Source: Nemertoderma westbladi
Lineage: Eukaryota > Animalia > Xenacoelomorpha
Assembly: GCA_032718475.1 (NCBI GenBank)
Contig: JAUCBJ010003768.1
Span: forward strand, 44,963-108,962
DNA: 64,000 bases
Direction of reading: 5' to 3'
The first letter of the stretch is position 1. Every line of letters starts with the position of its first letter. Under the pieces are notes generated by a model. It was given only the letters and a program-made list of their open reading frames with translations, searched no databases and was not told where the DNA came from. The position numbers were made by a program, and so were the translations under genes. This document shows, piece after piece, positions 4,892 to 64,000 of this stretch.

Positions 4892-5275
4892 CCCTATTAG
4901 TACCGGGCTATAAAATGTTGTACAAGGGGGGGTCATATTGACCCCCCCCCCCTCTAAAATCTACAAATTTTTACGAAAACGTCTGATTTTTTGTTTGTAC
5001 GTAGGTATCACTAGTCAGGATACGACCGAAAAAAAAAAATTTCGAAAAAATGTACTGGGGTGGTTATATTGCAGCACCAAAATTACAAGTAGTGCACAAT
5101 TTTCAGAAAATTTGAAAGTTACATTTTTCGTCTAATTGTTTTTCAATACAGGTTTTCTGGGGCGCAAAATACATTGAAAAATATTTAAAAATGATATGAT
5201 TACTATAAATGGCTGTTTAGTCCTCTCTGCGTAGGAAAAAAATGAAAAAAACAAGTACCAGCACTTTTCAGTTAG
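4892..5275 (+). mobile_element. Second, 3'-truncated copy of the piggyBac-like MITE
   Basis: Starts TTAA|CCCTATTAG; 4917-5275 is near-identical to 1-370, then breaks at TTTCAGTTAG into BEL sequence. Confidence 0.85.
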
Positions 5276-22104: not shown

Positions 22105-22662
22105 ATGGAAAGCTGCCCATACAAGGATTCCAAATATGGAAAGCTGGCCATACAAGGATTCCAAATATGGCAAACTGGCCATACAAGGATTCCAAATATG
22201 GAAAGCTGGCCATACAAGGATTCCAAATATGGAAAGATGGCCATACAAGGATTCCAAATATGGAAAGATGGCCATACAAGGATTCCAAATATGGAAAGAT
22301 GGCCATACAAGGATTCCAAATATGGAAAGCTGACCATACAAGGATTCCAAATATGGAAAGATGGCCATACAAGGATTCCAAATATGGAAAGATGGCCATA
22401 CAAGGATTCCAAATATGGAAAGCTGGCCATACAAGGATTCCAAATATGGAAAGATTGCCATGCAAGGATTCCAAATATGTAAAGCTGGCCATACAAGGAT
22501 TCCAAATATGGAAAGATGGCCATACAAGGATTCCAAATATGGAAAGATGACCATACAAGGATTCCAAATATGGAAAGCTGGCATACAAGGATTCCAAATA
22601 TGGAAAGCTGGCTATACAAGGATTCCAAATATGGAAAGCTGGACATACAAGGATTCCAAATA
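22105..22662. repeat. 31-bp minisatellite (ATGGAAAGCTGGCCATACAAGGATTCCAAAT), about 18 copies
   Basis: Direct repetition; the unit matches an internal segment of the MITE family at 57.4-62.5 kb (e.g. reverse complement at about 61720-61753). Confidence 0.95.
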
Positions 22663-25210: not shown

Positions 25211-25398
25211 CTTATATCTCGTGTCGTCCACCTCATCTCTCGTCGCCTTTACCCAGCGGCGGCTGTCCGGCGATTTCATTTCAATCACGTAGTTTTTAAT
25301 CCGCGAGCCGCCATCATTATCTGGAGGTTGCCACGACAACGAAACAAAATCACGTCCAGTGCCGGTCACTTTGAGGTGGGTGGGTCTGTCGGGAACGT
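25211..25398 (-). CDS. Titin-like exon (N-terminal half of FN3; last exon found)
   Basis: DVPDRPTHLKV...DDTRYK; acceptor clear, donor AAG|GTACCG tentative. Confidence 0.8.
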
Positions 25399-28300: not shown

Positions 28301-31300
28301 GGGTCCTTTATTGTGATTGGTTCTCTGGTGATTCCTGGTTCACTACCACCCGCCGCATTCACTGCAATTACACGGAACTCATAAGTTTTCCCTTCGTCCA
28401 CGTCACTGATATCTAATTCTGTCGCATTAACAGGCTGGTTATTGACCTTCATCCACCTATAATACCGAATTATTTGGGTTGATTATCAGAAATTGGCAAC
28501 ATAATTCAATATTGGGTATTCCTTAACAACTAAATTACCTTATTGGAAAATTGCTAACATTGTGCTACCAAATATACATTATAATCTAAAAACGACCACC
28601 GCAAACACACCGAGGTGAAAATATTATAAAGCTAATAAATGGTCACGGATTGATAAACATTGTGACCAAATACACTCTCATCTAACATTATGACTACCAA
28701 ATACATTCTCATCTAACATGATGACTACCAAATACGTAATAATCTAACATTATGACTACCAAATACATTCTCATCTAACATTATGACTACCAAATATATT
28801 CTCACCTAACATTGTGACTACCAAATACATTCTCATTAACATTGTGACTACCAAATACATTCTCATCTAACATTGTGACTACCAAATACATTCTCACCTA
28901 ACATTGTGACTACCAAATACATTCTCACCTAACATTGTGACTACCAAATATATTCTCACCTAACATTGTGACTACCAAATACGTAATAATCTAACATTGT
29001 GACTACCAAATACATTCTCATCTAACATTGTGACTACCAAATATATTCTCACCTAACATTGTGACTACCAAATACATTCTCATTAACATTGTGACTACCA
29101 AATACATTCTCATCTAACATTGTGACTACCAAATACATTCTCACCTAACATTGTGACTACCAAATACATTCTCATCTAACATTGTGACTACCAAATACAT
29201 TCTCACCTAACATTGTGACTACCAAATACGTAATAATCTAACATTGTGACACCCAATATATTCTCACCTAACATTGTGACTACCAAATACATTCTCACCT
29301 AACATTGTGACTACCAAATACATTCTCACCTAACATTGTGACTACCAAATACATTCTCACCTAACATTGTGACTACCAAATACATTCTCATCTAACATTG
29401 TGACTACCAAATACATTCTCACCTAACATTGTGACTACCAAATACGTAATAATCTAACATTGTGACACCCAATATATTCTCACCTAACATTGTGACTACC
29501 AAATACATTCTCATTAACATTGTGACTACCAAATACATTCTCATCTAACATTGTGACTACCAAATACATTCTCACCTAACATTGTGACTACCAAATACAT
29601 TCTCATCTAACATTGTGACTACCAAATACATTCTCACCTAACATTGTGACTACCAAATACGTAATAATCTAACATTGTGACACCCAATATGTTCTCACCT
29701 AACATTGTGACTACCAAATACATTCTCATCTAACATTATGACTACCAAATACATTCTCACCTAACATTGAGACTACCAAATACATTCTCACCTAACATTG
29801 TCACTACCAAATATATTCTCACCTAACATTGTGACTACCACATACATTCTCAGCTAACCTTGTGCTACCCAATTCCTTTTTCTCAACCAGATACCCAGTA
29901 ATCCTGGAGCCACCATCCTTCTTTGGTTTATCCCAGGCCAACGTCAACCCATCTTTAGTAACATTCTCGCCCCTGACGTTGGCCGGCTTATCTGCAACAT
30001 CATAAGGATTCTTAGCCACTACCGGAGAGCCTGTCAACGGTTCCGATACACCAAACTGATTCTCCGCCATCACTCGGAACTCGTACTCCTCACCTTCGAC
30101 CAGTTTACCTACAGTCAACGAGGTTTTGTTACCATTGGCGACGCCAACCTGAACCCAGTTACCACGACGATCTCGCTTCTCCACGATGTAACCCAGAACT
30201 TCTCCGTCGCCGCAGTCGTCCGGAGGTTTCCAGGCCAGTTCCACGCGGTCAGCGAAGACCTCCGGGAACTCCAGGGGGCCCTTCGGCGCAGCCGGTATGT
30301 CGTAGACTACCGTGTTGGCGACGCCGGTCGCGGTCCCGGCAACGTTACTCGCTGTCAGGGTATACGGACCGGTATCCGAACGAACGGATCTGGGTATAAT
30401 CAATGATATAACGCCACTTCCGCGATCATACTCCACGTCTAGTTTCACCCGGTCGCTGTTTTCTACCTGCACACCTCCATGCATCCATTTAACATCCGGC
30501 TTAGGACTACCTTTAAAATTGACAATCAACTCCAAAGGCTGTCCGGCTTTTACTCGGACGTCATGTAACCCGGACATATCCAAAACCGGCTCAATTTCCG
30601 GCTCCTTTATAGTAATCATTTCGGTCTCAGGACTCGGTTCCCCTTTTCCGGCCTCGTTAACCGCTTTCACTCTAAACTTCGCCTGAGAACCTTTTGGTAA
30701 ACCCTCGATATTTGCCCGAGTGTCCGGAGTACGACAGCACTCCTCCCACACCCCATCGGGGCCGCTCTTCTCCACTATGTACTCCTTAATATTCCCGCCC
30801 CCGTCGTTCCTGGGTTTATCCCACGAGAGAGCCACCGAATCGTCCGTGATCCCCTCCACGACCGGCTTCCCCGGGGGTCCGCTACCGTGGATCGGGAACC
30901 TCGCCACCGCCTTCTCGCTCGGTCCCGACGGCTCGGAGACACCGGCGAGATTCTCCGCGGCGACCCGGAACTCGTAAGTCTGATCTTCGATCAGATTGGA
31001 CACCACAAATTGGGTGTCCAAAATCGGCTGACGGGAAACTCTAGTCCACTTCCGAGTGTCGGCATCACGCTTCTCCAGAATGTATCCTGTAATTGGACTT
31101 CCCCCATCAGCCGCTGGAGGCGTCCAGTTCACGGTTATGCTAGAGGGTGTTGTTGCGCCTATTTTTGGCGGTGCAGGTGATGAAGGTGGGTCAAATGGTA
31201 GCTTAGCAACCGTATATTTTTCTGTCTCAAGAGGTTCACTTTCACCTTCTAGATTAGCTGCAACAACCCTGAACAAGTACTCATGGTTTTCTTCTAGTTT

Positions 31301-34300
31301 AGGTACAGTTAGACTTGTTTTTGTTGTTGCTATGGGATTCACTCTGACCCAACGACCAGTCGCTTTGTCCATCTTCTCCACGTGGTACCCACTGATTGGA
31401 CTTCCACCATCATCAGCTGGAGGTTTCCATGACAACACTGCCGATTCCCTGGTCACATCGGATACATCGAGAGGACCCTGTGGCGGTGAGGGTTTATCCA
31501 ACACGTTAACATTACAACTTCCATCAGCGGAACCGAGTTTATTACTCAGGTTTAATCGATAAGACCCAGCATCTGTTCTACTCGCTTTGTCAATATGAAC
31601 AATCGTAACATCGGGTGAATTATCAATCTAAATTGGAAAAAATTGACATAAAATTAATTACTAATCGATAACGTTGCGCTGAAACACATACTACTGTAAA
31701 GAGCAGCAGTAGTTCCAGTACTCCTCTACGGGAGTCCATGCTGGGCTCTAACTGCTGAGGACACCAAATCTCTGGATGGCACATTCACAAGAATGCTACG
31801 CCGGGTTCATTGTGTCAAGTACAATGCACACATCTCCAACCAGACACTATATAACATTGGAGGTGTCTCATTGGTTCCCCTCCGCTTTGCAGGACATTGC
31901 TTTCGCCGTGAGGACCAGCCAGTGCATAATCTTGTACTTTGGCAGCCTCATGGAGTGAATAAGCATGGTGGACAGCCCATGACTTTCTTGAGACGCATCT
32001 TAAAGGACACTGGCCTTGAAGATGCGGATGATCTAGCAAATGTCATGGGTGATAGTGAGTTGTGGCGGTGCAATTTTGTTGACAAGCCGGCACAGCATTC
32101 ATAAAAATGCAGCTGCAATGCAGCATGCCGATCCTAGTAGTAGTAGTATCCTAGTAACTGTAAAGCTTTACTTCCACCAGATTGTAATCTACCTTCTGCT
32201 GTTACCACTTTTTTAAATTCGGCCAATTTTCGATTGAATTCCATCAAAATGTGGTGCACTCAAACTCCAGACTAGACCTAATTAAATTGGAAAAAAATTA
32301 GAACCTAGCAAAATTATACATAAAACATGGAATTGGTCTAACAAGATATAATTTTATGAAACATCTCTTTGACATCAATTTGGCCCTTCTATTGTGTGTG
32401 ACCTGACCTTGAATGTAATCCCACCACAATCTTACCTTACAGTCTGCCCCAGATTGCAGCACATCTCCGTTTCTCTCCCATGTAATATTGGCTTCGGGGT
32501 TGCTCGTGAACGGAACTTCTAGATGCACCGACTGCCCGGCGCGCACGGTCACATCGCGAAGTCTGGCTAGGTCCATCTTGGGGGCCGAGAGCGGAGACAC
32601 CGCCTCGGAAGGTTTACTTGGTTCACCCAGGCCGGCTTCATTCTCAGCTAATACTCTGAATTCATACTCGTGACCTGGTAGAATTAAAATTTGAAAGGTA
32701 ACATAAAGAGATTGGCTAAGGGGCATATAAAGTATATATATCTAGTTTTAATAAATAATAATGCTGCAGAAGATGATAACTAAGTCGGTGTGAAGTATAG
32801 TATTAATGATGGAAATTTAATTATTATATAAGTCATATAAAACATTACAATTAATTCATAACTACAAAAACAAAAACTAATTTTATTCTTAAATAATCTT
32901 GAATAATGTGGCTTTTAAATTATTGCCAATATATAAAACACAATGAAGCACACTAACTAAATTAATATAAACTACCTACCTAACTATATACAAAAGTACA
33001 AAATCAGTCTAACCCGCTGAGTCAGTAAATGTATAAAAATGTACAAAAACAAAATATATCCCAAAACAAATATTGTTAGGAGTAAATAGCTAATTAGTTA
33101 GTGTTTTAATAGTCTAACCTGGTTCCAGCCCATCCACTGTCATTTCTGTCCCCTTTACAGGTGTATGATTGCATTTCACCCATTTATTGGTGGCCTTATC
33201 CAATTTCTCAACCACATAGCCCTTGATGGGTTTACCGCCATCTTCTTTGGGTGGTTTCCATGACAATGTTACAGAGTCTGGTGTAACTTCCTCAATCACT
33301 GGCTTCGAAGTACAAGAAGGCGGTTCAAACATATTCTTAGCCACAACGGGAGATCCCTCGAGTGGTTCGGATATGCCAAACTGGTTCTCAGCCGAAACTC
33401 TAAACACATATTCTGAGCCTTCATTGAGTTTAGTTGCTGTAAAGGTTGTTTTTGAACACGTTTCTGTTACCTTAACCCAAACACTTCTCTTAACATCCCG
33501 TCTCTCAACAATGTATCCCAAAATATCCGATCCACCATCATCTTTGGGTGGTTTCCATGACAATGTAACAGAATCTTTTGTGGTTTCAGGATATTCGACT
33601 GGGCCTTGAGGTGGTGATGGTTTATCCAACACAGTAACATTAGCAGTCCCTTCGACCTCTCCTGAACTATTAGTTAAAAGTAATTTATACTTCCCGGAAT
33701 CTGGGCGAGATGATTTATTTACTGTTAGTCTTGTAGAAGTAGCAGTAGTTTCTATAACAACCGCATTGCTAGGTGACAACTGTTTATCACCATGGTACCA
33801 TGTAGCAGTTGGAGGAGGACTTCCAGTGAACTTGACATTAAGATCAATAGGACTTCCAGCTTTGACTTTAACATCCTGTAAGTCACTCATATCCATAGTA
33901 GGAGCTATTTTAGGAGTTTCAATTAAGGTCAGGGGAGTAGGTTTACTGGCTTCACCTGGCCCAACTTCATTAATTGCCTTTACACGGAATTCTAACTCAT
34001 CGCCTTTATTGAGACCATCGACGGTGCATTTAGGCTCTGAGCACCTGAAATATTGAAAAACGAAAATCAAATATAATTGAAATCCACTGGAAAACATTAG
34101 AAGAATCAGAATCCTACCATTGTTGCATTGGACATTATTGTTCTCAAATTCATACAATACTTAAAATCGGCTGGTTTTAATGTAAGCAAGTACAATATTA
34201 CATTTTCTATATAATTATATATAATATACAGAAAACTTCCATAATTATGTATTATATATGAATCGTAAAATGAAATTAAATGCTACATATTATTTATTAT

Positions 34301-37300
34301 ACATAACGTTTGATTTTTAGGTCCGCGTAGCGAGACCTCTAGTATTCACTCTGTTATTAGGTCCGCGTAGCGAGACCTCTAGTATTCACTCCGTTGTTGT
34401 TGTTGCTGGTGTTGTTAATTTCTCATTAGGTTTTGGTATTAAGGCTTGATACGGCCCCAGTGGCTCAGTTGGCAGAGCGTGGGACTTGGAATCTCTAGGT
34501 ACCGAGTCCAATCCCCCATTCCGGTGAATGTTTTTATGTTGTAAGATTGGTAGTAAGCCATTCAAGGAGACAGCCCATGCGTTAGTAAACGCGGACCTTT
34601 GCGCGATTTCGCGCTTGTTATGCTACAACAACTTTTACCCATTATGTTAATTTCCAGTGTGTCATATAGAAAATTCCAGAAAGTTAGTGACACCCAAAAA
34701 AAAATCTGAGTGATACAGTCAGGGGAGAAGTGGGGGCTAAAAATTCAAAATTTTGAAAATGGTTTTTTACATATTATTGTTCAAAGACATGTGCTAAGGG
34801 TTCTCACAAAATTTTAATAAGATCCCTCTACAGGAGGTGCTTTAAAAATGGGTATACACATGATGAAGTCTGTTGTTCGATTGACGTATCCGTACAAATT
34901 TTGCCCTTTCGGGGAAATATTCTACTAAAAAATAAAAACTATGTTCAGAAGGTTACTTACTGTAAGAATTGCTCGTGACTAAGTGACTTAACTGACTGAA
35001 TTTTCACAGTGGCTGGCTGGCCGGATTCTAAGGTTCCTGGCATGATTTTCGAGCCTCTGGGCTCGAAAAATAGACGTATACCGAAAAAAGCAATAGGCAC
35101 AATGATAAATCAACAGCTGGAGCACATGAGAAATGGATAGAGAGGTCCTAGTAATGCCATTCAATAGGGAGGGCCCAGCTACCCAGAAAGTACTTTCTTT
35201 GCCAAGTTTTACTTACTCACTCACGATCTCCCAGACAGTAAACAAACATAAGCTGTAGTTTTGTATTGTATTACCCCCTCAGCTAATAGCTCTTTCCCAT
35301 TCATCCTATAGGAAGATCTACAAGGTTACACACTCTGCTATGTTAGGAATTTACTTTAGTTTACTCTACTGTGCCATTCTGCTGAATGGATTTGAGCAAG
35401 CAGGTTAGTTACGACTGCTAGGATTTTGGCACTGTAACTAAAATATATATATAACATCTGGACTAACATCGCCCAGTCACTCAACCCTCACCACATAGAT
35501 ACTTACTGTTCACCCCTTGCATAGTAAAACTTTATATTGCAAGTTTTTTCCATACACAGTCTAACGCCAGTACAATACATTTTTTGTATTAAAAGGTTGG
35601 TTCCTTATTGGGCCCCTAGGCCCATCACTAGTTAGGAACCGACAGGTTACTTACTATAAGAATTGCTCACTATTATACTGATTAGTTGTGAGAGCTTTGG
35701 TGACAGCTATAATTTCTATATATTTCTCGATATAACACCATCACATGAATGGGGGACAAAATGTTCAGAAAATATATACTTGATATATAAAAGGCCTGGC
35801 GAACCCCCACGCGGTTTACATTACAGTTAACCAATTAAAATCATTACCTAGACCTTTGACAGCTGCCTAAGGAAAAGTCTGTCTGGAAGTTTTCTAATCA
35901 GAATAAAATTACATATCTCATAGTTACAACATACTATAATCGTATAAAGTGTTTCATTATACACCATCAGGTAACTAACTAGTTATCATAATCATATATT
36001 TGATATTTTTTTGCAAATTAGATTGATTTGGTTCAGAATGTCACATAAACTCTTGGAAGTATATTATGCAACAAACCCATTGAATATGATATGAATTAAA
36101 TTCATGAAAATATATAATGCCAAAATAATGCAAACATTCAATCATCCACAACCACATGTGAAGTATAATCTTTAAGACTACACATACTAAAATTAATTAT
36201 TATAATATTATAACCTGGAACATTCTTCCCATTCACCATCTGGTTTCCTCATCTCCACTACATATCCCTCCACATTACCATCACCATCATATGTCGGCTT
36301 CTCCCAGGCTAGAGTTACTGAGTCATCAGTAACAGCTTCAACCTCAGGCGTCCCAGGGGGTCCAGCCTGGAACACAGGATAGCGGGCGATCGCCTTCTCG
36401 CTTGGTTCTGATGGTTCTGATAAACCAGCAAGATTCTCTGCTGAAACACGGAACTCATATTCTTGACCTTCAATCAAGTTTGGAACTGTAATTTCAGTTC
36501 CTTTGACAGGATGTTTTCCAACTTTTGTCCATTTTCCAGAACGAGTGTCTCTTTTTTCAACAACATATCCTGTAATAGGACTACCCCCATCAGATTCAGG
36601 TGGTTTCCATGATAAACTGATACTATCAGGAGTTGTTGTCTCGATCACAGGCGGTACTGGCGATGAAGGGGGGTCAAATGGTAGCTTAGCAACTGTATAT
36701 TGCTCTGTCTCCAGTGGTTCACTTTCACCTTCGAGATTGGCAGCAACAACCCTGAACATATACTCATGGTTTTCTTCTAGTTTAGGTACAGTTAGACTTG
36801 TTTTTGTTGTTGCTATGGGATTCACTCTGACCCAACGACCAGTCGCTTTGTCCATCTTCTCCACGTGGTACCCACTGATTGGACTTCCACCATCATCAGC
36901 TGGAGGTTTCCATGACAACACTGCCGATTCCCTGGTGACATCAGATACTTCAAGAGGTTCACATGGTTTACCAGGCACATCGAGAACATTGACCTTAAGA
37001 GAACCCTCTGCAGAGCCAATCTCATTGGTCAATCTGATGCTGTACATGCCAGTGTCGGACCTCACAACTTTATCAATAGAAACAATTGTAAGACCTGGTT
37101 TACTCTTCTGCGTTTTAGCCTCATCAAGTGGAACGTCTTCTTTAGACCAACTAACAGTAGGTTCAGGATTCCCTTCATAATCTAATTCGATGAGAAGAGG
37201 CTTTCCTGCTTTTAATGTAATATCTCTGAGTTTAGAAAGATCAAGTTTAGGGGCACATTTTGGTGAAACAGCTTCAGTGGGAGAACTGGGTTCTCCAGGT

Positions 37301-52300: not shown

Positions 52301-55300
52301 AACTCTATTGGTTACTCTATTTGTAACTCTATTGGTTACTCATTTGTAACTCTATTGGTTGCTGTATTTGTAACTCTATTGGTTACTCTATTTGTAACTC
52401 TATTGGTTACTGTATTTGTAACTCTATTGGTTACTGTATTTGTAACTCTATTGGTAACTCTATTGCCTATTGGTTACTCTATTGGTTACTGTATTTGTAA
52501 CTCTATTGGTTACTGTATTCGTAACTCTATTGGTTACTCTATTTGTAACTCTATTGGTTACTGTATTTGTAACTCTATTGGTTACTCTATTTGTAACTCT
52601 ATTGGTTACTCATTTGTAACTCTATTGGTTACTGTATTCGTAACTCTATTGGTTACTCTATTTGTAACTCTATTGGTTACTGTATTTGTAACTCTATTGG
52701 TTACTCTATTTGTAACTCTATTGGTTACTCTATTTGTAACTCTATTGGTTACTGTAATTGTAACTCTATTGGTAACTCTATTGCCTATTGGTTACTCTAT
52801 TGGTTACTGTATTTGTAACTCTATTGGTTACTGTATTCGTAACTCTATTGGTTACTCTATTTGTAACTCTATTGGTTACTGTATTTGTAACTCTATTGGT
52901 TACTCTATTTGTAACTCTATTGGTTACTGTATTTGTAACTCTATTGGTTACTTTATTGGTTACTTTATTGATAACTCTATTGGTTACTTTATTGGTTACT
53001 TTATTGGTAACTCTATTGGTTTCTCTATTGGTTACTGTATTTGTAACTCTATTGGTTACTGTATTTGTAACTCTATTGGTTACTCTATTTGTAACTCTAT
53101 TGGTTACTGTATTTGTAACTCTATTGGTTACTGTATTTGTAACTCTATTGGTTACTCTATTTGTAACTCTATTGGTTACTGTATTTGTAACTCTATTGGT
53201 AACTCTATTGCCTATTGGTTACTCTATTGGTTACTGTATTTGTAACTCTATTGGTTACTGTATTTGTAACTCTATTGGTTACTGTATTTGTAACTCTATT
53301 GGTTACTCTATTTGTAACTCTATTGGTTACTCATTTGTAACTCTATTGGTTGCTGTATTTGTAACTCTTTTGGTAACTATATTGGTAACTCTCTTGGTTT
53401 CTCTATTGGTTACTGTATTTGTAACTCTATTGGTTACTGTATTTGTAACTCTATTGGTTACTCTATTTGTAACTCTATTGGTTACTGTATTTGTAACTCT
53501 ATTGGTTACTGTATTTGTAACTCTATTGGTTACTCTATTTGTAACTCTATTGGTTACTGTATTTGTAACTCTATTGGTAACTCTATTGCCTATTGGTTAC
53601 TGTATTTGTAACTCTATTGGTTACTGTATTTGTAACTCTATTGGTTACTGTATTTGTAACTCTATTGGTTACTCTATTTGTAACTCTATTGGTTACTCAT
53701 TTGTAACTCTATTGGTTGCTGTATTTGTAACTCTTTTGGTAACTATATTGGTAACTCTATTGGTTTCTCTATTGGTTACTGTATTTGTAACTCTATTGGT
53801 TACTGTATTTGTAACTCTATTGGTAACTCTATTGCCTATTGGTTACTCTATTGGTTACTGTATTTGTAACTCTATTGGTTACTGTATTCGTAACTCTATT
53901 GGTTACTCTATTTGTAACTCTATTGGTTACTGTATTTGTAACTCTATTGGTTACTCTATTTGTAACTCTATTGGTTACTCATTTGTAACTCTATTGGTTG
54001 CTGTATTTGTAACTCTATTGGTTACTCTATTTGTAACTCTATTGGTTACTGTATTTGTAACTCTATTGGTTACTGTATTTGTAACTCTATTGGTAACTCT
54101 ATTGCCTATTGGTTACTCTATTGGTTACTGTATTTGTAACTCTATTGGTTACTCTATTTGTAACTCTATTGGTTACTCATTTGTAACTCTATTGGTTGCT
54201 GTATTTGTAACTCTATTGGTTACTCTATTTGTAACTCTATTGGTTACTGTATTTGTAACTCTATTGGTTACTGTATTTGTAACTCTATTGGTAACTCTAT
54301 TGCCTATTGGTTACTCTATTGGTTACTGTATTTGTAACTCTATTGGTTACTGTATTCGTAACTCTATTGGTTACTCTATTTGTAACTCTATTGGTTACTG
54401 TATTTGTAACTCTATTGGTTACTCTATTTGTAACTCTATTGGTTACTCATTTGTAACTCTATTGGTTACTGTATTCGTAACTCTATTGGTTACTCTATTT
54501 GTAACTCTATTGGTTACTGTATTTGTAACTCTATTGGTTACTCTATTTGTAACTCTATTGGTTACTCTATTTGTAACTCTATTGGTTACTGTAATTGTAA
54601 CTCTATTGGTAACTCTATTGCCTATTGGTTACTCTATTGGTTACTGTATTTGTAACTCTATTGGTTACTGTATTCGTAACTCTATTGGTTACTCTATTTG
54701 TAACTCTATTGGTTACTGTATTTGTAACTCTATTGGTTACTCTATTTGTAACTCTATTGGTTACTCATTTGTAACTCTATTGGTTGCTGTATTTGTAACT
54801 CTTTTGGTAACTATATTGGTAACTATATTGGTTTCTCTATTGCTTACTATATTTGTAACTCTATTGGTTACTGTATTTGTAACTCTATTTGTAACTCTAT
54901 TGGTTATTATATTTATTCTTTATTCTATTCTACCTTTATTTATTCTAGCGGGGTGAATGTCAATTAGGTTATTCATTAGTTTTCCTAGAAAACAGGAAAA
55001 CAGGAAATTACTTGTGATTAATTAAACAAATAACGCACAAAAAACGTCACGGAGTTTTGTAAATAATCAGCTTACTCTAATATATTTATTTGGAATCAGT
55101 AATAGAAGTTCTACTGGAATAATTAACTAAGTTAAGTATAAATACACAGATGGATAACATTAAATTGAATTCAATATACGGTTCATCGAGTTAATATAGC
55201 TTTCGGTTATAAGTCGCCATTTAACTTGGATACTTAAAGGAATCCTCCGTTACCATAGTTACTTATAGGAATCCTCCGTTACCATGGTTACTAACAAGTA

Positions 55301-57117
55301 GTCCTCCGTTACCATAGTTACTTATAAGAATCATCCGTTACTATGGATACTTACAGGGGTCCCACCGTCATCCTTGGGTTCCTTCCAACTGAGTGTAACA
55401 GAATCTCGAGTTACGTCCGTCGCCTCTAGAGGGCTCTCCGGGGCTCCCGGCGCCCCCAGTATTACAACACCAAGTTCCCCTTCGGCGGACCCAACGGAAT
55501 TACGGAGTTCCACTTTGTACCGCCCGGTGTCGCTACGTTTAGTTTTCTCCATAATAAAGACGCATTTAGTAGTCTGAACATCAACCTGAAAAAATATTAT
55601 TATATTAAAATTAGTTAACAGATTGGTGTATCGCAGGTTAAGCGAGAAGGGATTGAACCAGTTCAATGAAAATAATGTATTCAAACGTGCAATAATTAAT
55701 TAATATAAATCGTTTGTTATTGGGAAATTATGGAAGCCGATTACGGTCACTAAACATATTAATGCAACCTAAAACGTATTTATATCATGCCACAACAACA
55801 TTATTGCGTGAATGCGACCAATTGCTTCACTGGGAATAGACTCACCGCAATTGCAGCAATGCATTCCATTGCAAGTCATATGAATGGCCAAGTCACGCAC
55901 ATTCCCGTCCTTTAGGTCTTGGTCTATTGTAGGTCTAACTAACTGTAGGCCTAATGCTGACTGTATTGTACCGGTACCGCTACTGCAATAACCAGATAAT
56001 TAAAACTGAAATATACTTTCAGAATGTGGCACAACAGCAAATTTGAATTCCCCACCACAACAGCCAAATATTCCAATACACATTGGCATTAACTTGAGTT
56101 CGCAATAATGTTATTGTGTAATGAAAATGACACAGGTACATACGTAAAACGGTAAAACGTACATAAATACGTTTTAGGTTGGACTAATATGTTTAGTGAC
56201 CGAAATGGGCTTCCATAGAAAATGACTATTAACCTTAGAAACCCCAGAACTATCTCAGAGGATACTGAAACTAATTTAGCTACAGTCATTGAATAAGAAT
56301 GCACGCCAGAGATGAACTCCGTCTAGAATTCGCACCGAAATTTAAATTCCCATTGCCACCATGCGGATCTGGTCTCGTTGACTTTTTTTGTTTTTAGTTT
56401 AAAAAATAAATTATTGAAATATGAGAAGAGTATTTAAGTATATTATATGACTATTATGATTATACCTTGAGTCTGCCGTCCTTTACTTCAGTTTCATGTA
56501 AATATAGGAATCCTTGAGGATTGGGGTTGGCCCAATAGACAACCTCTATACGTAATGTTTGGCCGGCCTTTAGTATAACGTCTTTGAGACTTCCCATATC
56601 GATCTTAGGTTTACCTATGTAAATAAAACGATAACATCTATAGTAAACGAATAAACAACGAAAGTAAATTATTATATAGTTCAAAAACAAAGAGCACCAA
56701 TTTAGCATTTATTACTTATTACGACACTTTGTAAACAATGGACAAACAAATTTACTTTACCTCTTGTAATCTTGCTTTAAAACCCGATCGTTAATAACAC
56801 GGGTCATGAAGCTAAGTTGCCATGGGTACACTTACGTTTACATTTAATAACATGGGACATGACGCTAGGTTGCCAAGGGTACACTTACGTTTACATTATT
56901 TAATAACATAGGACATGACGCTAGGTTGCCATGGGTACACTTACGTTTACATTTAATAACATGGGACATGGCGCTAGGTTGGCCTGGACCAGCCTCATTG
57001 GCGGCGGCGACACGGAACTGATACTCAAGGTCAGAATCAACACCCTCAACGGTGAACTCGAGTTCCGGGGTCGGCGAGGAATTTACCGGAATCCATTTCT
57101 TAGATGATTTATCAAAT
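25211..57117 (-). CDS. Titin/twitchin-family giant Ig/FN3 muscle protein, partial gene span (20 exons in window, about 3,750 aa)
   Basis: All exons have AG/GT ends and consecutive phases fit. Typical FN3 (W.PP..DGGS.I.GY.VEK, Y.FRV.A.N..G) and I-set Ig (G.P.P...W, D.G.Y...L.N..G) motifs. No start, kinase domain or stop in window. Confidence 0.93.
25675..25746 (-). tRNA. tRNA-His(GTG), intronic; T-loop variant
   Basis: GCCTGGATAGTATAGTGGTTAGTACTTTGCGTTGTGGCCGCAAAAACCCCGGCTCGAATCCGGGTCCAGGCA; stems pair, GTG anticodon, followed by a T-rich terminator; GGCTCGA instead of GGTTCGA. Confidence 0.8.
25943..26110 (+). mobile_element. Short L2-like LINE/SINE 3' end with 15-bp TSD
   Basis: AGCGCTTTGAA...AAAGGCGCTATATAAAT stem-loop and AT tail; flanked by TGGGGCGAGCCACGA at 25928-25942 and 26111-26125. 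Confidence 0.6.
27108..27407 (-). CDS. Titin-like exon (FN3)
   Basis: DAPGPPGGPLDV...TAKNPF; phase 1-1. Confidence 0.92.
27891..28172 (-). CDS. Titin-like exon (Ig)
   Basis: SAPVFDMSNIKDITL...CNVIVL; phase 1-1. Confidence 0.92.
28296..28456 (-). CDS. Titin-like exon (FN3 C-terminal half; absent from ORF track)
   Basis: RWMKVNNQPVNATELDISDVDEGKTYEFRVIAVNAAGGSEPG...IKDPD; phase 2-1. Confidence 0.9.
28675..29858. repeat. 31-bp minisatellite abutting, and resembling, the exon donor junction
   Basis: Unit CTCACCTAACATTGTGACTACCAAATACATT, about 38 copies. Confidence 0.95.
29859..31627 (-). CDS. Titin-like large exon (Ig end-Fn-Fn-Fn-Ig-Fn-Fn start)
   Basis: IDNSPDVTIV...KKELGST(R); 1769 nt, phase 0-2. 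Confidence 0.93.
31702..32156 (+). mobile_element. 5'-truncated intronic copy of the same RTE LINE
   Basis: Near-identical to about 14233-14722 except a 27-bp deletion; (TAG)n tail; TSD ACTGTAAAG at 31693-31701 and 32157-32165. Confidence 0.92.
32436..32674 (-). CDS. Titin-like exon (FN3 end, Ig start)
   Basis: GHEYEFRVLAENEAG...SGADCK; phase 1-0. Confidence 0.92.
33119..34044 (-). CDS. Titin-like exon A4 (Fn end-Ig-Fn-Fn)
   Basis: RCSEPKC...VDGLEP; 926 nt, phase 2-1. Confidence 0.93.
34315..35830. mobile_element. Probable non-autonomous element (Helentron/HINE-like start, embedded tRNA-like segment at about 34453-34525)
   Basis: Tandem 40-bp start TTAGGTCCGCGTAGCGAGACCTCTAGTATTCACTC x2, (GTT)n tract, then AGTGGCTCAGTTGGCAGAGCG A box. 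Right boundary is a guess. Confidence 0.35.
36215..37408 (-). CDS. Titin-like exon B3 (Fn end-Ig-Fn-Fn-Fn start)
   Basis: 1194 nt, phase 2-2. Confidence 0.93.
37544..38404 (-). CDS. Titin-like exon A3
   Basis: 861 nt, phase 2-2. Confidence 0.93.
39174..40367 (-). CDS. Titin-like exon B2
   Basis: 1194 nt, phase 2-2. Confidence 0.93.
40496..41356 (-). CDS. Titin-like exon A2
   Basis: 861 nt, phase 2-2. Confidence 0.93.
42047..43240 (-). CDS. Titin-like exon B1
   Basis: 1194 nt, phase 2-2. Confidence 0.93.
43373..44233 (-). CDS. Titin-like exon A1
   Basis: 861 nt, phase 2-2. Confidence 0.93.
44361..44517 (-). CDS. Titin-like exon (FN3 N-terminal half; absent from ORF track)
   Basis: AMCSSPGQPEVDDVTDNSIALHWSKPEDDGGGKISGYLVEKKKPDGEWEECA(R); phase 1-2. 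Confidence 0.9.
44666..44832 (-). CDS. Titin-like exon (FN3 C-terminal half; absent from ORF track)
   Basis: TGRWSKCNKAPVTTLEYTATDLFEGSEYQFRISAQNDAGIG...ARYPI; phase 2-1. Confidence 0.9.
44970..46040. repeat. 28-bp minisatellite (GGGACATACTTTCACGGGACCTAGAGA[A/C])
   Basis: About 35 copies, degenerate at the edges; a lone diverged unit lies at 46111-46140, 12 nt into the intron. Confidence 0.96.
46153..46288 (-). CDS. Titin-like exon (FN3 N-terminal half)
   Basis: DEPDAPSKPDVIDTTPTTITVTWKPPENDGGNPISGYWIEKRDKN; phase 1-2. Confidence 0.9.
46603..47264. repeat. 39-bp tandem array of exon end plus splice donor
   Basis: Minus-strand unit TGGTTAAACTACCATACG|GTAAGTTATTCATAATCATAT versus exon end TGGTCAAATTACCATACG|GTACGTTATTCATAA. 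Confidence 0.96.
47265..47466 (-). CDS. Titin-like exon (FN3 C-terminal half)
   Basis: ITNYIVEKFDIKAKKW...VKLPY; phase 0-1. Confidence 0.92.
48002..54907. repeat. 6.9-kb intronic satellite built of 12-bp units (GTAACTCTATTG / GTTACTGTATTT)
   Basis: Direct repetition with 24-bp dimers and an 1837-bp higher-order duplication. Confidence 0.97.
55228..55354. repeat. Decayed 29-30 bp tandem array of exon end plus donor (4 copies)
   Basis: Minus-strand copies ACGGAGGATTCCT-ATAAGTA versus exon end ACGGTGGGACCCCT|GTAAGTA. Confidence 0.75.
55355..55585 (-). CDS. Titin-like exon (Ig end, FN3 start)
   Basis: VDVQTTKC...DDGGTP; phase 0-0. Confidence 0.92.
56466..56614 (-). CDS. Titin-like exon (Ig start)
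   Basis: RKPKIDMGSLKDVILKAG...DGRLK; phase 1-0. Confidence 0.9.
56790..56944. repeat. 53-56 bp tandem copies of exon end plus donor
   Basis: CAACCTAGCG(C/T)CATGTCCCATGTTATTAAATGTAAAC|GTAAGTGTACCC repeated; donors at 56944, 56888 and 56835. Confidence 0.92.
56945..57117 (-). CDS. Titin-like exon (FN3 C-terminal half)
   Basis: (K)FDKSSKKWIPVN...YQFRVAAANEAGPG...VIKCK; phase 2-1. Confidence 0.9.
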
Positions 57118-57416
57118 CTAAAACAAATTATAAATAACATACTCTCGTATTTATTGTTTACTTATAACTTATTGTTAATTAGTTTTGTTTTGTTTTTATT
57201 ATGGGCGTCGGTTAGCCCGGAATGATATTAAATAATAATAAAATTTCCTTATGTATGTATATGCCATATATCCCATCTAATTATCCTATATCTACACCAG
57301 TATCCATTCTACCTATATGTCTACTCTAATATTTATTATAATTTTCCTAAATGTTTACTCCAGTATTTATTATAGCTATTACTATTTAATATATACACCA
57401 TGTCCCGGAACATAGT

Positions 57417-58425
57417 TGTGAGGAACGGCGCAGAGTTGAGAGAGAAAGGGAGAGGGAGAGACTGCACCTGTTCCGCCGGTTCTTACCAAAGTGAGAGGGC
57501 TGTTAGACACCTCCCGTAAGAGTTCGATGTGAAGTTGAGGTGAAAAACAAGTAGAGATCGTTGAGAATTGCCGGAACTATATATTATTAGAATCAGTTTG
57601 GAGTTAAAAGAAAAGTCAGGGGCTTCCGCGAGCAGAGGGTGAAGAAGGTAAGGAAAGTGAGAAAACAGGCCCTTTTATAGCCAGACATTATGCAAATCGG
57701 GATCGGAACGTACTGGATGCTGATTGGTCGGAGCTACTGGTTGGCCAAGTAGTTACGTTTCGATCCTATTGCACCTATGGGCTGGCAAGGGCAGGAGGTT
57801 GATGACATGGGTAATGTGACATAGAAACGTATCGGCGTTAGGCAAACCAAACGTGACACCACAGGACAAACCTATACGTTTGGATCCTATTTAGAAGTGA
57901 ATGTCTGTCTCTCCAATCAATATCCTTGGCGGACAATCAAAGATTACTTTTGTATTATTTAATTTAATATTTAACCACACCGAGTTGGAATAATTATTTT
58001 AACGACCTACGAATTATTTCAGTTCCGGGACTCATACTCAATCAGACTTTTATGGATTTTAAATGCATTTTAAATATTTTGTTCATTCACATATTGTCAT
58101 TTTACTTCAAACCTTATATCTGTCGTAATGGTGACCGGACACTCCCCCCCCCCCCCCCCCCGTGCGGGTGGAACGCTTCCCTCCCGGGCACTCCCCCCCC
58201 GAATGGGGGCGGGGGATGCCCGGGTGTGGGGGACTGCCCGGGGGGGGGGGGGGGGGGGGGGGGTGTCCTAGATCCATCGTAATCTGTGCGAATACGTTTG
58301 TGTCTATAACGTGCATTTCATAATTGTTTTTATTGTCAGTTTATCTGAATTAAACTAATGAATTGAATTGAATTGTGAGACTGAAACGTGATCCCACTGA
58401 ACAACCCTACACGAGATTATTCACA
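57417..58425 (-). mobile_element. Probable solo LTR inserted in the MITE arm
   Basis: TGTGA...TCACA termini interrupt the MITE consensus ATAGT|GTCGTAATT; minus-strand TATA (GGCTATAAAAGGG) and CCAAT; TSD imperfect. Confidence 0.55.
58130..58275. mobile_element. Small GC-rich MITE with 8-bp TSD
   Basis: GGTGACCGGACAC-poly C ... poly G-GTGTCCTAGATCC; flanks GTCGTAAT / ATCGTAAT. Confidence 0.55.
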
Positions 58426-59102
58426 ATTGCCGTAATTGACACGGCCCCCATCCCCATACCCCCCCCCCCCCTAAATTGTTATACAAATCTTGATGAGATT
58501 GCATGAAAATTGAAATAGAGAGAGTTTCACTTCCCGACAACTTACTGGGTTAGCCAGAATTTTTATTTTTGTTGGTACCAATGGAAATCTGGCCGTGCAA
58601 GTATTCCAATTATGTAACCCCATCTGAATTTCATTGAAAAATAGCTGAGATACGGGCGTTCAAAATTTGCATCTGCGCGAGGCTATTTTATTATATTTAA
58701 TAAATACACCATATTCTAGAACATTGTATTAATGTATGTATGTACATAATATATGTATAATCTGTATAATATATCTGTATTATCTGTATAATATATACAT
58801 ATACACCCTGTCCCAGAATATAGTGTCGTAATTCAGTTAAATCTGGCCCTCCAAGGATTTCAAATATTTAACGCAATTTGAATTTCGTTGAAAAATAGCT
58901 GAGATATGAGCCTTCAAATGTTGCATGGTTATGCACCTGCGCGAGGCTATTTTATTCTATTTAATAAATGCATCATATTCTGGAATATTTTTTTTATCCA
59001 AATACGTAGCTGGGCAACAATGCATTACATCTTTATCATACTATTACGTAGCTATTCATACATTTAAAAAAGGAACATTTTGTTAATGTATGAATAAGTA
59101 TA

Positions 59103-59948
59103 CACCATGACCCGTAATATAGTGTCATTTTCTGATGACACGGACCCTCCCCCCCCCCCCCCAAATTTTCCTACAAATCTTTATCATATTGCTTGAAATT
59201 TGAAACATAATTAGTTCAACTCACCGTGGTTGTTACCATGAAGCCGAAATTTTCGATTTCGCCTTTAAATTTTATTTACAAGCGTTTTAAAAAAGTGTCT
59301 TTTGCGAAATCGCACCCTCTGTATCATTGCCATTCTTCACGTTAGTCGTAAGCAAAAGTATGTAATGAAAGCGAATGTAGGCATTCAAAGATTGCAAGAA
59401 TTATTGTTCACTGCAGGCCATTTATTCTATTTAATAAATACACAATATTCTGGAACAATTTGTTTATGTATGATTATAGCTACGCAATATAGATATTGTA
59501 TAGGCGTACCGCTGTTGCCAACCAACTCATAAAATAAAACACGTTCTAGAATTTTGTGTATTTATTAAATAGAATAAATGGCTTGCAGCGAACAATAATT
59601 CTTGCAATCTTTGAACGCCTATTTCTCAGCTGTTTCTCAATGAAATTCAGATATTGCTACATATTTGGAATCCTTTCAACGCAAGCTTTCTATTGATGTG
59701 AAAAAATTACGACTAAAGTGAAGAATGGCAATGATACAGAGGGTGCGATTTCGCAAAAGACACTTTTTTAAAACGCTCATAAATAAAATTTAACGGCGAA
59801 ATCAATCGAAAATTCCGGCTTCATGGTAACAACCACAGTGAGTTGAACTAGTTGTGTTTCAAATATGATAAAGATTTGTAGAACAATTTGTGGGGGGGGG
59901 GGGGGGTCCGTGTCATCAGAAAATGACACTATATAAAGGGTCATGGTG
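59103..59948. mobile_element. Complete palindromic MITE (related subfamily) in the 3' UTR of the CRE-like element
   Basis: TA|CACCATGACCC...GGGTCATGGTG|TA with long (about 350-400 bp) inverted arms. Confidence 0.85.
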
Positions 59949-60573
59949 TAATATAATAATATCAAACATTGATGAAGTAAGAGTAGGGACAAGGTAGATG
60001 ATACCGGTAATTACTATTGATTCTAATTAAATTTAAGAAAGTTATAGTTGAAGGAAGAATGGATGGAGATGGAGAATCCCAACGAAGGCGACTCAACCCT
60101 GTTTAAAAGCTCCCTGCAAGGTTGATGCCGCGTAGGCCCGCGTCGTCGCCGAACCCCAATCCACGCCATGGTCGTCGACCTCGACCGCCGCGCAGGCAGA
60201 GCGAGCTGGATCGAAGGAGCGCAAACAGAAGCCTCCGGCGAATACCTCGGCGAGATGGCGGAGCAGGATCTGGGTCTCGAGGCACCAAACACCATCGGTT
60301 GTACCGACCAGTGGGGTGAACTCCATCCTCCGTTCCTCGCAGATAGACCGGTAGTGATTCTTCTTGAAGCGGCAACGCGCCTCAAGCAGCGAATCTGTCG
60401 AGCGGTTGGTCTGGGCGTAAGAGGTGGCGTCAGCGTTGATAACAGCAATGTCGAACGACGCAACTCTCTGATTGGCCCAGGCCCCGCGAGCTACCAGGTC
60501 TGCACGCACTCCCCCTACCTCGCGACCCTCCCTGTCCAGGTGACCACGAGAAAGAGTCACCTCCCGCTCGACA

Positions 60574-61143
60574 CTGGATGGTCCTACCACCTCTGGATGG
60601 TCCTACCACCTCTGGATGGTCCTACCACCTCTGGATGGTCCTACCACCTCTGGATGGTCCTACCACCTCTGGATGGTCCTACCACCTCTGGATGGTCCTA
60701 CCACCTCTGGATGGTCCTACCACCTCTGGATGGTCCTACCACCTCTGGATGGTCCTACCACCTCTGGATGGTCCTACCACCTCTGGATGGTCCTACCACC
60801 TCTGGATGGTCCTACCACCTCTGGATGGTCCTACCACCTCTGGATGGTCCTACCACCTCTGGATGGTCCTACCACCTCTGGATGGTCCTACCACCTCTGG
60901 ATGGTCCTACCACCTCTGGATGGTCCTACCACCTCTGGATGGTCCTACCACCTCTGGATGGTCCTACCACCTCTGGATGGTCCTACCACCTCTGGATGGT
61001 CCTACCACCTCTGGATGGTCCTACCACCTCTGGATGGTCCTACCACCTCTGGATGGTCCTACCACCTCTGGATGGTCCTACCACCTCTGGATGGTCCTAC
61101 CACCTCTGGATGGTCCTACCACCTCTGGATGGTCCTACCACCT
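60574..61143. repeat. Perfect 19-bp minisatellite x30 (CTGGATGGTCCTACCACCT) inside the endonuclease ORF
   Basis: 570 bp = 30 x 19; no variant unit seen. Confidence 0.97.
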
Positions 61144-62544
61144 CTGCCAGGAGGTCTCCGAAAACTTCGCGGACCCCGTCGTGCCGCTTTATAATGAGTC
61201 CGCCAGACTTACAGCTTACAGCGCATGCCGATGTTGAGAACGCGCTCCCGCACCCTTCGCACCTAGCTGGAAGACCCGGCGGGGTTAGGCCGTACCGTAG
61301 AGCCAGACCATCGCGAAACTCATCAGGGCTCAAGTCGGTGTGGTCTACGGATGGATGGTTGCGCTGTTATCCAACCCCCGATCTTATTGGACACGGCACG
61401 TTCAACAGGTCTTTTGCAGCCAGGAGGTAGAGTCGACAGAACTGTAGTCTGCTGCAGCTTGAAGGCATGGTCTTGGGCTAGCTTGTGGGTCTTCAGCACT
61501 TCACGGAGATGTAACTCGTGGTCCGCCATGTAGAGTGGCTGTCAGGATAGTATAGCCGCCGTCACCAGAAAAGTACCGTCGATGGATACATTTAAAAAAT
61601 GTTCCAGAATATGGTTTATTTATTAAATAGAATAAAATAGCCTCGCGCCGGTGCAAAACCATGCAACATTTGAACGCTCATATCTCAGCTATTTTTCAAC
61701 GAAATTCAAATTGTGTTACATATTTGGAATCCTTGCATGGCCAGCTTTCCATTGGTACCAACAAACAGCTATAAGGCAGAAGAATAACTGCGGTGTAACT
61801 GGTGTAATATCGCTGGAGACACCTTTTTTAAACGCTTGTAGCTAAAGATTGAAAGCAAAAATAAAAATTCTGGCTCACCCAGTCAGTGGTCGGGAGGTGA
61901 AACTATCTCTGTTTCAAATTTCATGCAATCTCATTACGATTTGTAGAAATATTAGGGGGGGGGGGGGGTGTCACTGAATTACGACACTATATTCTGGGAC
62001 ATGGTGTTGTACATAAGAGTATGATTAAAGAAGCATTGCATTGTTGCCCAGCTACGTATTGGATATACAAAATGTTCCAGAATATGGTGTAATAATTAAA
62101 TAGAATAAAATAGCCTCGCGCAGATGCAAAACCATGCAAATTTTAAACGCTGATATCTCAGCTATTTTACGACGAAATTTCGATTGTATTACATATTTGG
62201 AATCCTTTCACAACCAGCTTTCTGGCTGGTTGTGCAGCCAAACAAACAAATTACTATAAGGGTGAATAACCAAACAAACAAACAAATTACTATAAGGGTG
62301 AATAATAACTGCGGTGGGATTGGTGTAATATCACCGGAGACACTTTTTTTAAACGCTTGTAGCCACATAATGACAGCAGATATAAAAATTCTGGCTCACA
62401 CAATAAGTAGTCGGGAAGTGAAACTGTCTCTGTTTCAAATTTCATGCAATCTCATTAAGATTTGTAGAAACATTTGGGGGGGGGGGGGGGGGGGTGGTCG
62501 TGACATTGAATTAGGACACTATATTCCGGGGCATGGTGTATATA

Positions 62545-64000
62545 AGTCTACTCCAGTATTTATTTTACTTATATATATCTACTCCAGTATGAATTCTACT
62601 TATATATATCTACTCCAGTATTTATTCTACTTATATATATATCTGCTTCAGTACTTATTCTACTTATATATATATCTACTTCAATACTTATTCTACTTAT
62701 ATATATCTACTCCAGTATATATTATACTTATATATATCTACTTCAGTACTTATTCTACTTATATATATCCACTCCAGTATTTATTCTACTTATATATATC
62801 TACTTCAGTACTTATTCTACTTATATATATCTACTCCAGTATGAATTCTACTTACTTCTCCAATAGATATCCCTCGATCGGGCGAACTACTTATATATAT
62901 CTACTCCAGTATGAATTCTACTTACTTCTCCAATAGATATCCCTCGATCGGGCGACCTACTTATATATATCTACTCCAGTATGAATTCTACTTACTTCTC
63001 CAATAAATATCCCTCGATCGGGCGACCTACTTATATATATCTACTCCAGTATATATTCTACTTATATATATCTACTCCAGTATGAATTCTACTTATATAT
63101 ATCTACTCCAGTATTTATTCTACTTATATATATATCTGCTTCAGTACTTATTCTACTTATATATATATCTACTTCAATACTTATTCTACTTATATATATC
63201 TACTCCAGTATATATTATACTTATATATATCTACTTCAGTACTTATTCTACTTATATATATCCACTCCAGTATTTATTCTACTTATATATATCTACTTCA
63301 GTACTTATTCTACTTATATATATCTACTCCAGTATGAATTCTACTTACTTCTCCAATAGATATCCCTCGATCGGGCGAACTACTTATATATATCTACTCC
63401 AGTATGAATTCTACTTACTTCTCCAATAGATATCCCTCGATCGGGCGACCTACTTATATATATCTACTCCAGTATGAATTCTACTTACTTCTCCAATAAA
63501 TATCCCTCGATCGGGCGACCTACTTATATATATCTACTCCAGTATATATTCTACTTATATATATCTACTCCAGTATGAATTCTACTTACTTCTCCAATAG
63601 ATATCCCTCGATCGGGCGACCTACTTATATATATCTACTCCAGTATGAATTATACTTACTTCTCCAATAGATATCCCTCGATCGGGCGACCTACTTATAT
63701 ATATCTACTCCAGTAAGAATTCTACTTATATATATCTACTCCAGTATGTATTCTACTTACTTCTCCAATAGATATCCCTCGATCGGGCGACCTACTTATA
63801 TATATCTACTCCAGTAAGAATTCTACTTATATATATCTACTCCAGTATGTATTCTACTTACTTCTCCAATAGATATCCCTCGATCGGGCGACCTACTTAT
63901 ATATATCTACTCCAGTATATATTATACTTATATATATCTACTCCAGTATGTATTCTACTTACTTCTCCAATAGATATCCCTCGATCGGGCGACCTACTTA
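62545..64000. repeat. Composite array: 70-bp exon-end plus donor units (11 copies) mixed with 31-35 bp intron-only units
   Basis: Minus strand GGTCGCCCGATCGAGGGATATCTATTGGAGAA|GTAAGTAGAAT (GRPIEGYLLEK); 493-bp higher-order duplication; runs off the window. Confidence 0.95.

What the first reader, a model, noticed from the sequence alone, without database searches (positions are those of the whole stretch)
28675..64000. Recurrent splice-donor-seeded tandem arrays: five introns begin with repeats of their own exon end plus 5' splice site
Seen: five arrays with unrelated sequences (28675-29858, 46603-47264, 55228-55354, 56790-56944, 62545-64000; units 31, 39, about 29, 53-56 and 70 bp). Each unit is the last 15-37 nt of the adjacent exon, the GT donor and the first intron bases. 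The arrays extend only into the intron, and I found no equivalent array at any acceptor. They range from fresh to decayed. Inference: five independent origins at the same landmark in one gene suggest a donor-targeted duplication process (for example co-transcriptional R-loop or break repair, or RT template slippage). Selection could also contribute, because a donor-spanning duplication leaves the first exon copy intact. Either way it is a systematic route to intron expansion and to stacks of decoy donors. I do not know of a named system for this.
Basis: partly seen in the sequence, partly recalled or inferred. Interest (0 to 1): 0.85.

Follow-up and report, generated by a model that had tools for sequence, protein, structure and literature searches.

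The report
Five splice-donor mirage repeats, twitchin-like gene
In an animal's giant muscle-protein gene, five exon ends with their splice signal are each copied head-to-tail about 4 to 39 times into the next intron, a likely harmless repeat type already known as "mirages" in lancelets and from several human genes, though here they crowd exon ends more often than random copying would give.

Summary
A minus-strand twitchin/titin-like gene (20 exons, stop-free 3,748-codon frame) has five unrelated arrays whose unit is exon end + GT + intron head. The fifth array's exon lies outside the window, but a single-copy contig shows it. None of 20 acceptors has such an array (5 of 21 against 0 of 20, Fisher p=0.048, marginal).

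The class is named: amphioxus "mirage" minisatellites, and human F7/CBS/LMNB2/PDGF donor VNTRs, where the first donor is mostly used. Extension "only into the intron" follows from first-donor use and says nothing about mechanism.

One point survives: random placement plus loss of acceptor-spanning copies predicts 0.3-0.5 donor arrays (1.7 if all introns were 130 nt), against 5 seen; the window was, however, picked for this pattern. Three other arrays in these introns contain no donor.

Unchecked scan notes report the same in many genes of this genome, at acceptors too, and in other animals. The best reading is exon-border-biased duplication, ordinary unequal-exchange growth, and tolerance at donors. 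No genome or RNA was available, so the bias and the splicing are untested. New member of a known kind; interest 0.35.

The parts
25211..57117 (-). Twitchin/titin-like gene, 20 modelled exons (57117-56945, 56614-56466, 55585-55355, 47466-47265, 46288-46153, 44832-44666, 44517-44361, 44233-43373, 43240-42047, 41356-40496, 40367-39174, 38404-37544, 37408-36215, 34044-33119, 32674-32436, 31627-29859, 28456-28296, 28172-27891, 27407-27108, 25398-25211); it continues upstream beyond 64000
   Evidence: All introns GT-AG, 3,748 codons without a stop; Pfam fn3 and I-set; named hits are twitchin/titin-like at about 32-43% identity. No RNA evidence.
62545..64000 (-). Composite donor array: 11 heads (32 exonic nt + GTAAGT) interleaved with about 32 sub-units of 31-33 bp; the seeding exon lies beyond the window end
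   Evidence: contig loose end joining Fn3 exon sequence to the unit
57395..62543 (.). Nested transposon block with matching inverted ends; it splits the 31-bp array and holds a perfect 19-bp x30 array (60574-61146) inside a broken reading frame
   Evidence: Terminal inverted repeats; self-BLAST; TRF; no Pfam hit for the two frame pieces
57277..57394 (-). Decayed distal remnant of the 31-bp sub-unit array, 160 nt before the acceptor at 57117
   Evidence: 76% over 100 nt to 63027-63122
56791..56981 (-). Donor array at 56945: 53-56-bp unit (37 exonic + 16 intronic), 3.5 copies, 2 decoy donors identical to the real one
   Evidence: covered by short contigs in samples S1 and S2
55227..55370 (-). 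Decayed donor array at 55355: 29-30-bp unit (16 exonic + 14 intronic), 4 extra copies, 3 without GT
   Evidence: bridged by one contig with 0 differences in each of S1 and S2
48003..54913 (.). 6.9-kb 12/48-bp array in mid-intron, 442 nt from the donor; not donor-derived (counter-example)
   Evidence: no significant match to the donor region, p=0.21
46602..47288 (-). Donor array at 47265: 39-bp unit (24 exonic + 15-17 intronic), 17.4 copies; 12 decoys score at or above the real donor, none leaves the frame open
44984..46046 (-).
   Evidence: 30 of 38 identical to the intron head, p=0.001
28665..29875 (-). Donor array at 29859: 31-bp unit (about 16 exonic + 15 intronic), 39.2 copies; 19 copies carry a new TAG|GTGAGA site; remnant copy near 28560-28575

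Best explanation
These are five independent mirage-type minisatellites whose 29-70-bp units span an exon end and its splice donor; they likely began as small tandem duplications that arise preferentially at exon borders, likely grew by unequal exchange, and likely persist because splicing is predicted to use the first donor. Step 1 (shown): each unit derives from its own junction, and the five are unrelated. Step 2 (inferred): the seed duplication is favoured at exon borders. The most likely cause is that recombination or repair pairs in the conserved exon and slips where homology ends in the diverged intron. This would act at donors and acceptors alike. Step 3 (pattern shown, process inferred): interior copies homogenise while edge copies keep the junction's original letters, as in ordinary minisatellite turnover. 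Step 4 (inferred from human F7): the most upstream donor wins, so donor arrays end up wholly intronic and nearly neutral. Acceptor-side copies are transcribed before the real acceptor and are purged more often, which gives the donor excess. Almost any decoy use would give a premature stop.
For: Junction-derived units at 5 of 21 donors. Random placement with acceptor purge expects 0.29-0.53 donor-spanning arrays, P(>=5) 2e-6 to 4e-5, so selection alone on present-day introns falls short. Edge copies at 55355, 47265 and 29859 keep junction letters that interior copies lack, the same edge exclusion reported for amphioxus BflGb6. Repeated exons 8-14 are 93-98.5% identical while their introns are 57-78%, so homology in this gene breaks at splice borders. 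Splicing at the first donor aligns to homologues with no gap near the junction in 240 of 242, 210 of 244 and 228 of 249 spanning hits at 55355, 47265 and 29859. Of 36 strong decoys in the four in-window arrays, 35 would give a stop. First-donor preference is shown for F7. The window is generally prone to tandem amplification, with at least 10 arrays that span no donor.
Against: The border-slippage step is not shown; exon-over-intron identity can also reflect selection on an older duplication. The window was chosen for this pattern, so the P values are inflated. If all introns were 130 nt when the arrays arose, the expectation is 1.7 (P>=5 0.006; P>=4 0.049). A symmetric origin predicts some acceptor arrays and this gene has 0 of 20; the acceptor cases come from amphioxus and from unchecked notes. 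No RNA was laid. At 56945 only 20 of 189 spanning homologues are gap-free (variable linker), so homology says nothing there. CBS and 6-16 do use downstream pseudo-donors.
Confidence: 0.5

Rival explanations
1. No positional bias. Duplications arise at random in a tandem-repeat-prone genome whose introns were short, so a 30-70-bp unit often hit a donor. Exonic and acceptor-spanning copies were purged, and this window is a selected extreme.
For: With arrays and the transposon block removed, five of the six donor-associated introns shrink to 160-313 nt, and six introns without arrays are 123-148 nt. Under 130-nt introns with acceptor purge, 1.7 are expected, and P(>=4)=0.049 if the weak 55227 case is dropped. 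Many non-donor arrays exist.
Against: P(>=5)=0.006 even in that most favourable case, and 7e-4 for 200-nt introns. Six of the 7 arrays in host intron DNA derive from sequence within about 50 nt of a donor. Unchecked notes report 2-7 junction arrays per gene in several other genes of this genome.
Confidence: 0.2
2. One reading: a donor-specific, transcription- or splicing-coupled lesion (R-loop, polymerase pausing at the 5' splice site, or RNA-templated repair) creates duplications at donors.
For: 5 of 21 donors against 0 of 20 acceptors (p=0.048). A sixth array is seeded just inside the intron head. The excess over random placement.
Against: Array ends have no fixed register to the GT, and exonic content ranges from 16 to 37 nt. 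Acceptor mirages exist in amphioxus and, by unchecked notes, at very large size in this genome. Differential tolerance can produce the asymmetry. A twitchin-like muscle gene may be little transcribed in the germ line (general knowledge, untested).
Confidence: 0.2
3. The arrays are kept by selection as stacks of U1-binding sites that help exon definition or protect long AT-rich introns from premature cleavage, or as regulated alternative donors.
For: At 47265 the variant that spread through the interior (GTAAGT, 13 copies) is a better donor than the real GTACGT. At 29859, 19 copies gained a new donor-like site, and the first of them would add 12 residues in frame.
Against: 3 of 4 copies at 55227 lost the GT. 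The 28-bp array and 32 of 43 sub-units at 62545-64000 have no donor. Direct decoys at 29859 lost the -1 G. 16 of 21 donors have no array.
Confidence: 0.07
4. The arrays are assembly artefacts.
For: No listed contig spans the longer arrays. The 19-bp array at 60574 is 100% identical over 30 copies, and there are exact higher-order repeats.
Against: The 55227 array is bridged without differences in two samples from two studies. Pieces of the 56791 array and of the 70-bp unit occur in both samples. Copies carry graded divergence, and a transposon splits one array. Exact copy numbers of the long arrays remain unverified.
Confidence: 0.03

Closest known systems
Amphioxus 'mirage' minisatellites (Adh3, troponin C, globins BflGb6/BflGb9, PGBD5). 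PMC3087553: 6 passages and the reference lines read. PMC3902484: 4 passages read. The original Adh3 paper (Canestro 2002) was not held and is known only as cited.
   Same: Tandem unit spans an exon-intron boundary; many but not all copies keep the splice signal; 10-160-bp units; interior homogenised with edges excluded; several arrays per gene; origin stated to be unclear.
   Different: Here all five are on the donor side, whereas amphioxus has both sides. Up to 39 copies, against 2-7 in the globin and PGBD5 cases. The animal is not identified (best homologue about 43-46% over 200+ residues). Normal splicing and length instability were shown in amphioxus and not here.
Human donor-spanning VNTRs: F7 intron 7 (37 bp x5-9), CBS intron 13, interferon-inducible 6-16, LMNB2, PDGF intron 4. 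PMC1557585: abstract, Introduction and Discussion read.
   Same: The first monomer spans the exon-intron boundary, so the donor recurs in the intron; similar unit sizes and copy numbers; decoys equal to or stronger than the real donor.
   Different: One array per human gene, against five in one gene here. The F7 unit has only 4 exonic nt, against 16-37 here. First-donor scanning is shown for mammals and only assumed for this animal; CBS and 6-16 leak to nearby pseudo-sites.
Intron gain by tandem duplication of proto-splice sites (Rogers 1989; seen only as cited in PMC3087553)
   Same: Intragenic tandem duplication around splice signals changes intron content.
   Different: No new intron is shown here; existing introns are lengthened.

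Membership tests
Mirage / junction-spanning minisatellite | Tandem unit spans an exon-intron boundary of the host gene | tested here: met
   4 in-window donors and the fifth through a contig loose end
Mirage / junction-spanning minisatellite | Many but not all copies keep the splice signal | tested here: met
   2, 0, 14 and 20 decoys within 2 bits of the real donor, and 11 identical donors at 62545-64000; the scoring matrix was built from the same 20 donors
Mirage / junction-spanning minisatellite | Minisatellite-size unit (10-160 bp in amphioxus) | tested here: met
   29-70 bp; range
Mirage / junction-spanning minisatellite | Concerted evolution of interior copies with edges excluded | tested here: met
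   Edge copies keep junction letters at 55355, 47265 and 29859, judged by reading the copy lists; no tree was built
Mirage / junction-spanning minisatellite | mRNA spliced at the authentic site, no aberrant forms | not testable with these tools
   No RNA holder listed. Indirect only: open frame and gap-free homology at three junctions
Mirage / junction-spanning minisatellite | Length instability between haplotypes or individuals | tested here: inconclusive
Transposon-derived or dispersed satellite family | Unit shared among loci or derived from a mobile element | tested here: not met
   The five units match only their own junctions within the window. By contrast, the 22105-22662 array matches a dispersed element at 61682-61752. 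The rest of the genome could not be searched

The most novel reading that the evidence does not exclude
This animal has a genome-wide mutational process that nucleates tandem duplications specifically at the exon-to-intron transition and is coupled to transcription or 5' splice-site recognition. Units with better U1 sites would then spread preferentially, making splice donors the main seeds of its intron growth. The genome would be the first tractable system for finding how mirages arise.
Probability: 0.2. Interest if true: 0.75.

Novelty: new member of a known kind. Interest (0 to 1): 0.35.

Why it matters
Mirages were described from a handful of loci, and PMC3087553 calls their origin unclear. 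A gene with five of them, where random placement predicts under one, points to a real positional bias. A genome rich in them would allow the origin to be tested: donor against acceptor, young against old arrays, germ-line-expressed genes against others. They are also natural tests of splice-site choice among stronger decoys, and a trap for gene prediction and assembly. The single locus is not a new kind of element.

Tried and rejected
No whole genome is held, so the genome-wide donor/acceptor test could not be run.

No RNA holder was listed among 6 runs; this is no evidence on expression. Contig depth over the 70-bp unit differed between S1 and S2, but the tool states that depth is no copy number, so it was not used.

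No close protein relative or transcript-derived protein was found among the best 120 and 150 hits listed (266 proteins fetched), so neither the phylum nor orthologous introns could be examined.

Derivation of the 6.9-kb 12/48-bp array from the 55355 donor region was rejected (p=0.21). Derivation of the 31-bp sub-unit of the 62545-64000 array from an older copy of the same exon end was inconclusive (p=0.052). Weak decayed copies at donors 44666, 33119, 27891 and 27108 were not counted, because acceptors gave hits of like strength. tblastn found no further exon in 1-25150. An exact exon-end register, as an RNA-templated origin would leave, was not seen.

Literature: seven searches were answered over open-licence full texts only. 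None listed a genome-wide donor-versus-acceptor survey of such arrays; this does not show that none exists. PMC10078293 (9 passages read) did not address it. PMC2812944 was seen only as a listing. Supplements were not read; the BflGb6 alignments and PGBD5 repeat files may bear on the edge and unit comparisons.

Full report
Host gene. The window's minus strand carries part of a twitchin/titin-like gene. Six-frame reading and inspection gave 20 exons between 57117 and 25211, all bounded by AG and GT. They join into 3,748 codons without a stop. The exons tested encode fn3 and I-set domains. Named homologues are twitchin- and titin-like proteins of many animals at about 32-43% identity, and the best of 266 fetched proteins reaches 46%, so the animal is not identified. 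No genome is held and no RNA run was listed; the exon model rests on frame and homology.

The five arrays. At donor 56945 the unit is 37 exonic + 16 intronic bases, with copies 50 and 52 of 53 identical to the junction. At 47265 it is 24 + 15-17 bases, 17 copies. At 29859 it is about 16 + 15 bases, 39 copies. At 55355 it is 16 + 14 bases, with decayed copies at 20-22 of 30. A uniform test of all 20 donors and 20 acceptors against shuffled intron gave the floor value at exactly these four donors and at no acceptor. The exonic share of the 55355 unit failed two local tests but passed an in-phase test.

The fifth array. The array at 62545-64000 is composite: 11 heads that translate as GRPIEGYLLEK followed by GTAAGT, and about 32 sub-units of 31-33 bp without a donor. 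Its exon is outside the window. A 604-nt contig of run X1 enters the unit at 63027, and its unique part reads as the Fn3 LSWxxPxxDG motif in frame (hand translation; X1 may be the source sample). The phase fits the next exon. A transposon block at 57395-62543 later split this array and left a remnant at 57277-57394.

Reality of the arrays. The 55227 array is bridged with no differences by single contigs from two samples of two studies. Pieces of the 56791 array and of the 70-bp unit occur in both.

Three further arrays lie in these introns without spanning a donor: 6.9 kb at 48003-54913 (unrelated to the donor, p=0.21), a perfect 19-mer array inside the transposon, and a 28-mer array at 44984-46046 whose unit matches intron bases +10 to +47 after donor 46153 (30 of 38, p=0.001). 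Seven more arrays lie at 503-22662. The region amplifies tandem repeats generally. Extension 'only into the intron' is automatic: after a donor-spanning duplication the exon ends at the first donor used.

Is it more than chance? Donors against acceptors: 5 of 21 against 0 of 20, p=0.048; without the off-window case 4 of 20, p=0.11; paralogous junctions merged, 5 of 16 against 0 of 15, p=0.043. For position, I placed the observed units uniformly on intron DNA with arrays collapsed, counting a unit as donor-spanning with at least 3 exonic and 6 intronic bases, and treating exon-internal and acceptor-spanning events as purged. This expects 0.29 (8 arrays, transposon kept), 0.39 (7 arrays, transposon out) or 0.53 (15 arrays, whole window), with P(>=5) from 2e-6 to 4e-5. 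If every intron was 130 nt at the time of origin, the expectation is 1.7 (P>=5 0.006, P>=4 0.049). Purifying selection can only remove arrays, so it does not by itself explain the excess. The caveat is that the window was chosen for this pattern.

How they likely work. Edge copies keep junction letters that interior copies lack, at 55355, 47265 and 29859. This is the signature of origin from the junction followed by interior homogenisation, as reported for amphioxus BflGb6. Of 36 decoys scoring within 2 bits of the real donor in the four in-window arrays, 35 would introduce a stop, and 14 score at or above the real site. Splicing at the first donor is gap-free against 240 of 242, 210 of 244 and 228 of 249 spanning homologues at three junctions, and uninformative at 56945 (20 of 189). 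In human F7 the most upstream of identical donors is used even against stronger pseudo-sites (PMC1557585), although CBS and 6-16 leak. Tolerance at donors is therefore plausible but inferred. For the origin I favour slippage at the edge of homology. In this gene the repeated exons 8-14 are 93-98.5% identical while their introns are 57-78%, so pairing would break at splice borders. This step is not shown. It predicts acceptor arrays as well, which this gene lacks but amphioxus has and which unchecked scan notes report for this genome. A donor-specific, transcription-coupled process stays possible (0.2), as does the short-intron random model (0.2).

What is known. I recalled the term 'mirage' and confirmed it in PMC3087553 and PMC3902484 (passages); the defining Adh3 paper was not held. 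Human donor VNTRs are listed in PMC1557585. Four of the six mirage features were met, one was inconclusive and one untestable. The seven answered paper searches listed no genome-wide survey of donor bias; they cover open-licence texts only. The scan has found this arrangement before: 17 of 19 notes on this genome fit the donor-array look-up, and similar notes exist for other genomes. These are unchecked AI notes, used as leads only.

Verdict. This is a new, dense member of a known kind. The open point is why such arrays crowd exon borders. Interest 0.35.

Noticed in passing
window:33119-44233 (-): About 2.9-kb exon-pair super-repeat (861 + 1194 nt exons, three and a half times). Exons are 93-98.5% identical (third positions 87-96%) but introns only 57-78%, suggesting exon-bounded gene conversion or strong constraint.
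   Followed up: partly
window:46602-47288 and 28665-29875: In two arrays the variant that spread through the interior makes a better or a new donor-like site, while edge copies keep the original letters. With n=2 this could be chance.
   Followed up: partly
window:60574-61146: 19-bp x30.2 array, 100% identical, interrupting a GC-rich broken reading frame inside the transposon block; a very recent expansion or an assembly effect. No Pfam hit for the flanking frames.
   Followed up: partly
window:57395-62543: Nested block of related inverted-repeat elements with poly-G/C tracts inserted into the older 31-bp array.
   Followed up: partly
window:22105-22662: 31-bp x18 array whose unit matches an internal piece of the dispersed element at 61682-61752, so a transposon-seeded minisatellite.
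   Followed up: partly
window:4917-9369 (-), with 1-370: Retrotransposon-like long frames (DUF1759 hit) with in-frame 84-bp and 27-bp repeats. A 370-bp direct repeat (1-370 and 4917-5275, 96%) and a 26-bp satellite (1540-4858, 12069-12845) lie nearby.
   Followed up: no
window:24318-25211 (-): 298-codon open frame starting right at the last modelled donor, with a CxxCxxxGHxxxxC zinc-knuckle-like motif (recognised by eye) and a basic tail; no Pfam hit. No further exon of the gene was found in the 25 kb downstream.
   Followed up: partly
window:16920-18019: 341-bp x3 repeat at 99% identity, with an exact 88-bp inverted copy beside it.
   Followed up: no
window:14275-14746 and 31722-32167: A dispersed element of about 470 bp, 91% identical between the two places, one copy inside the intron before the long exon.
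   Followed up: no
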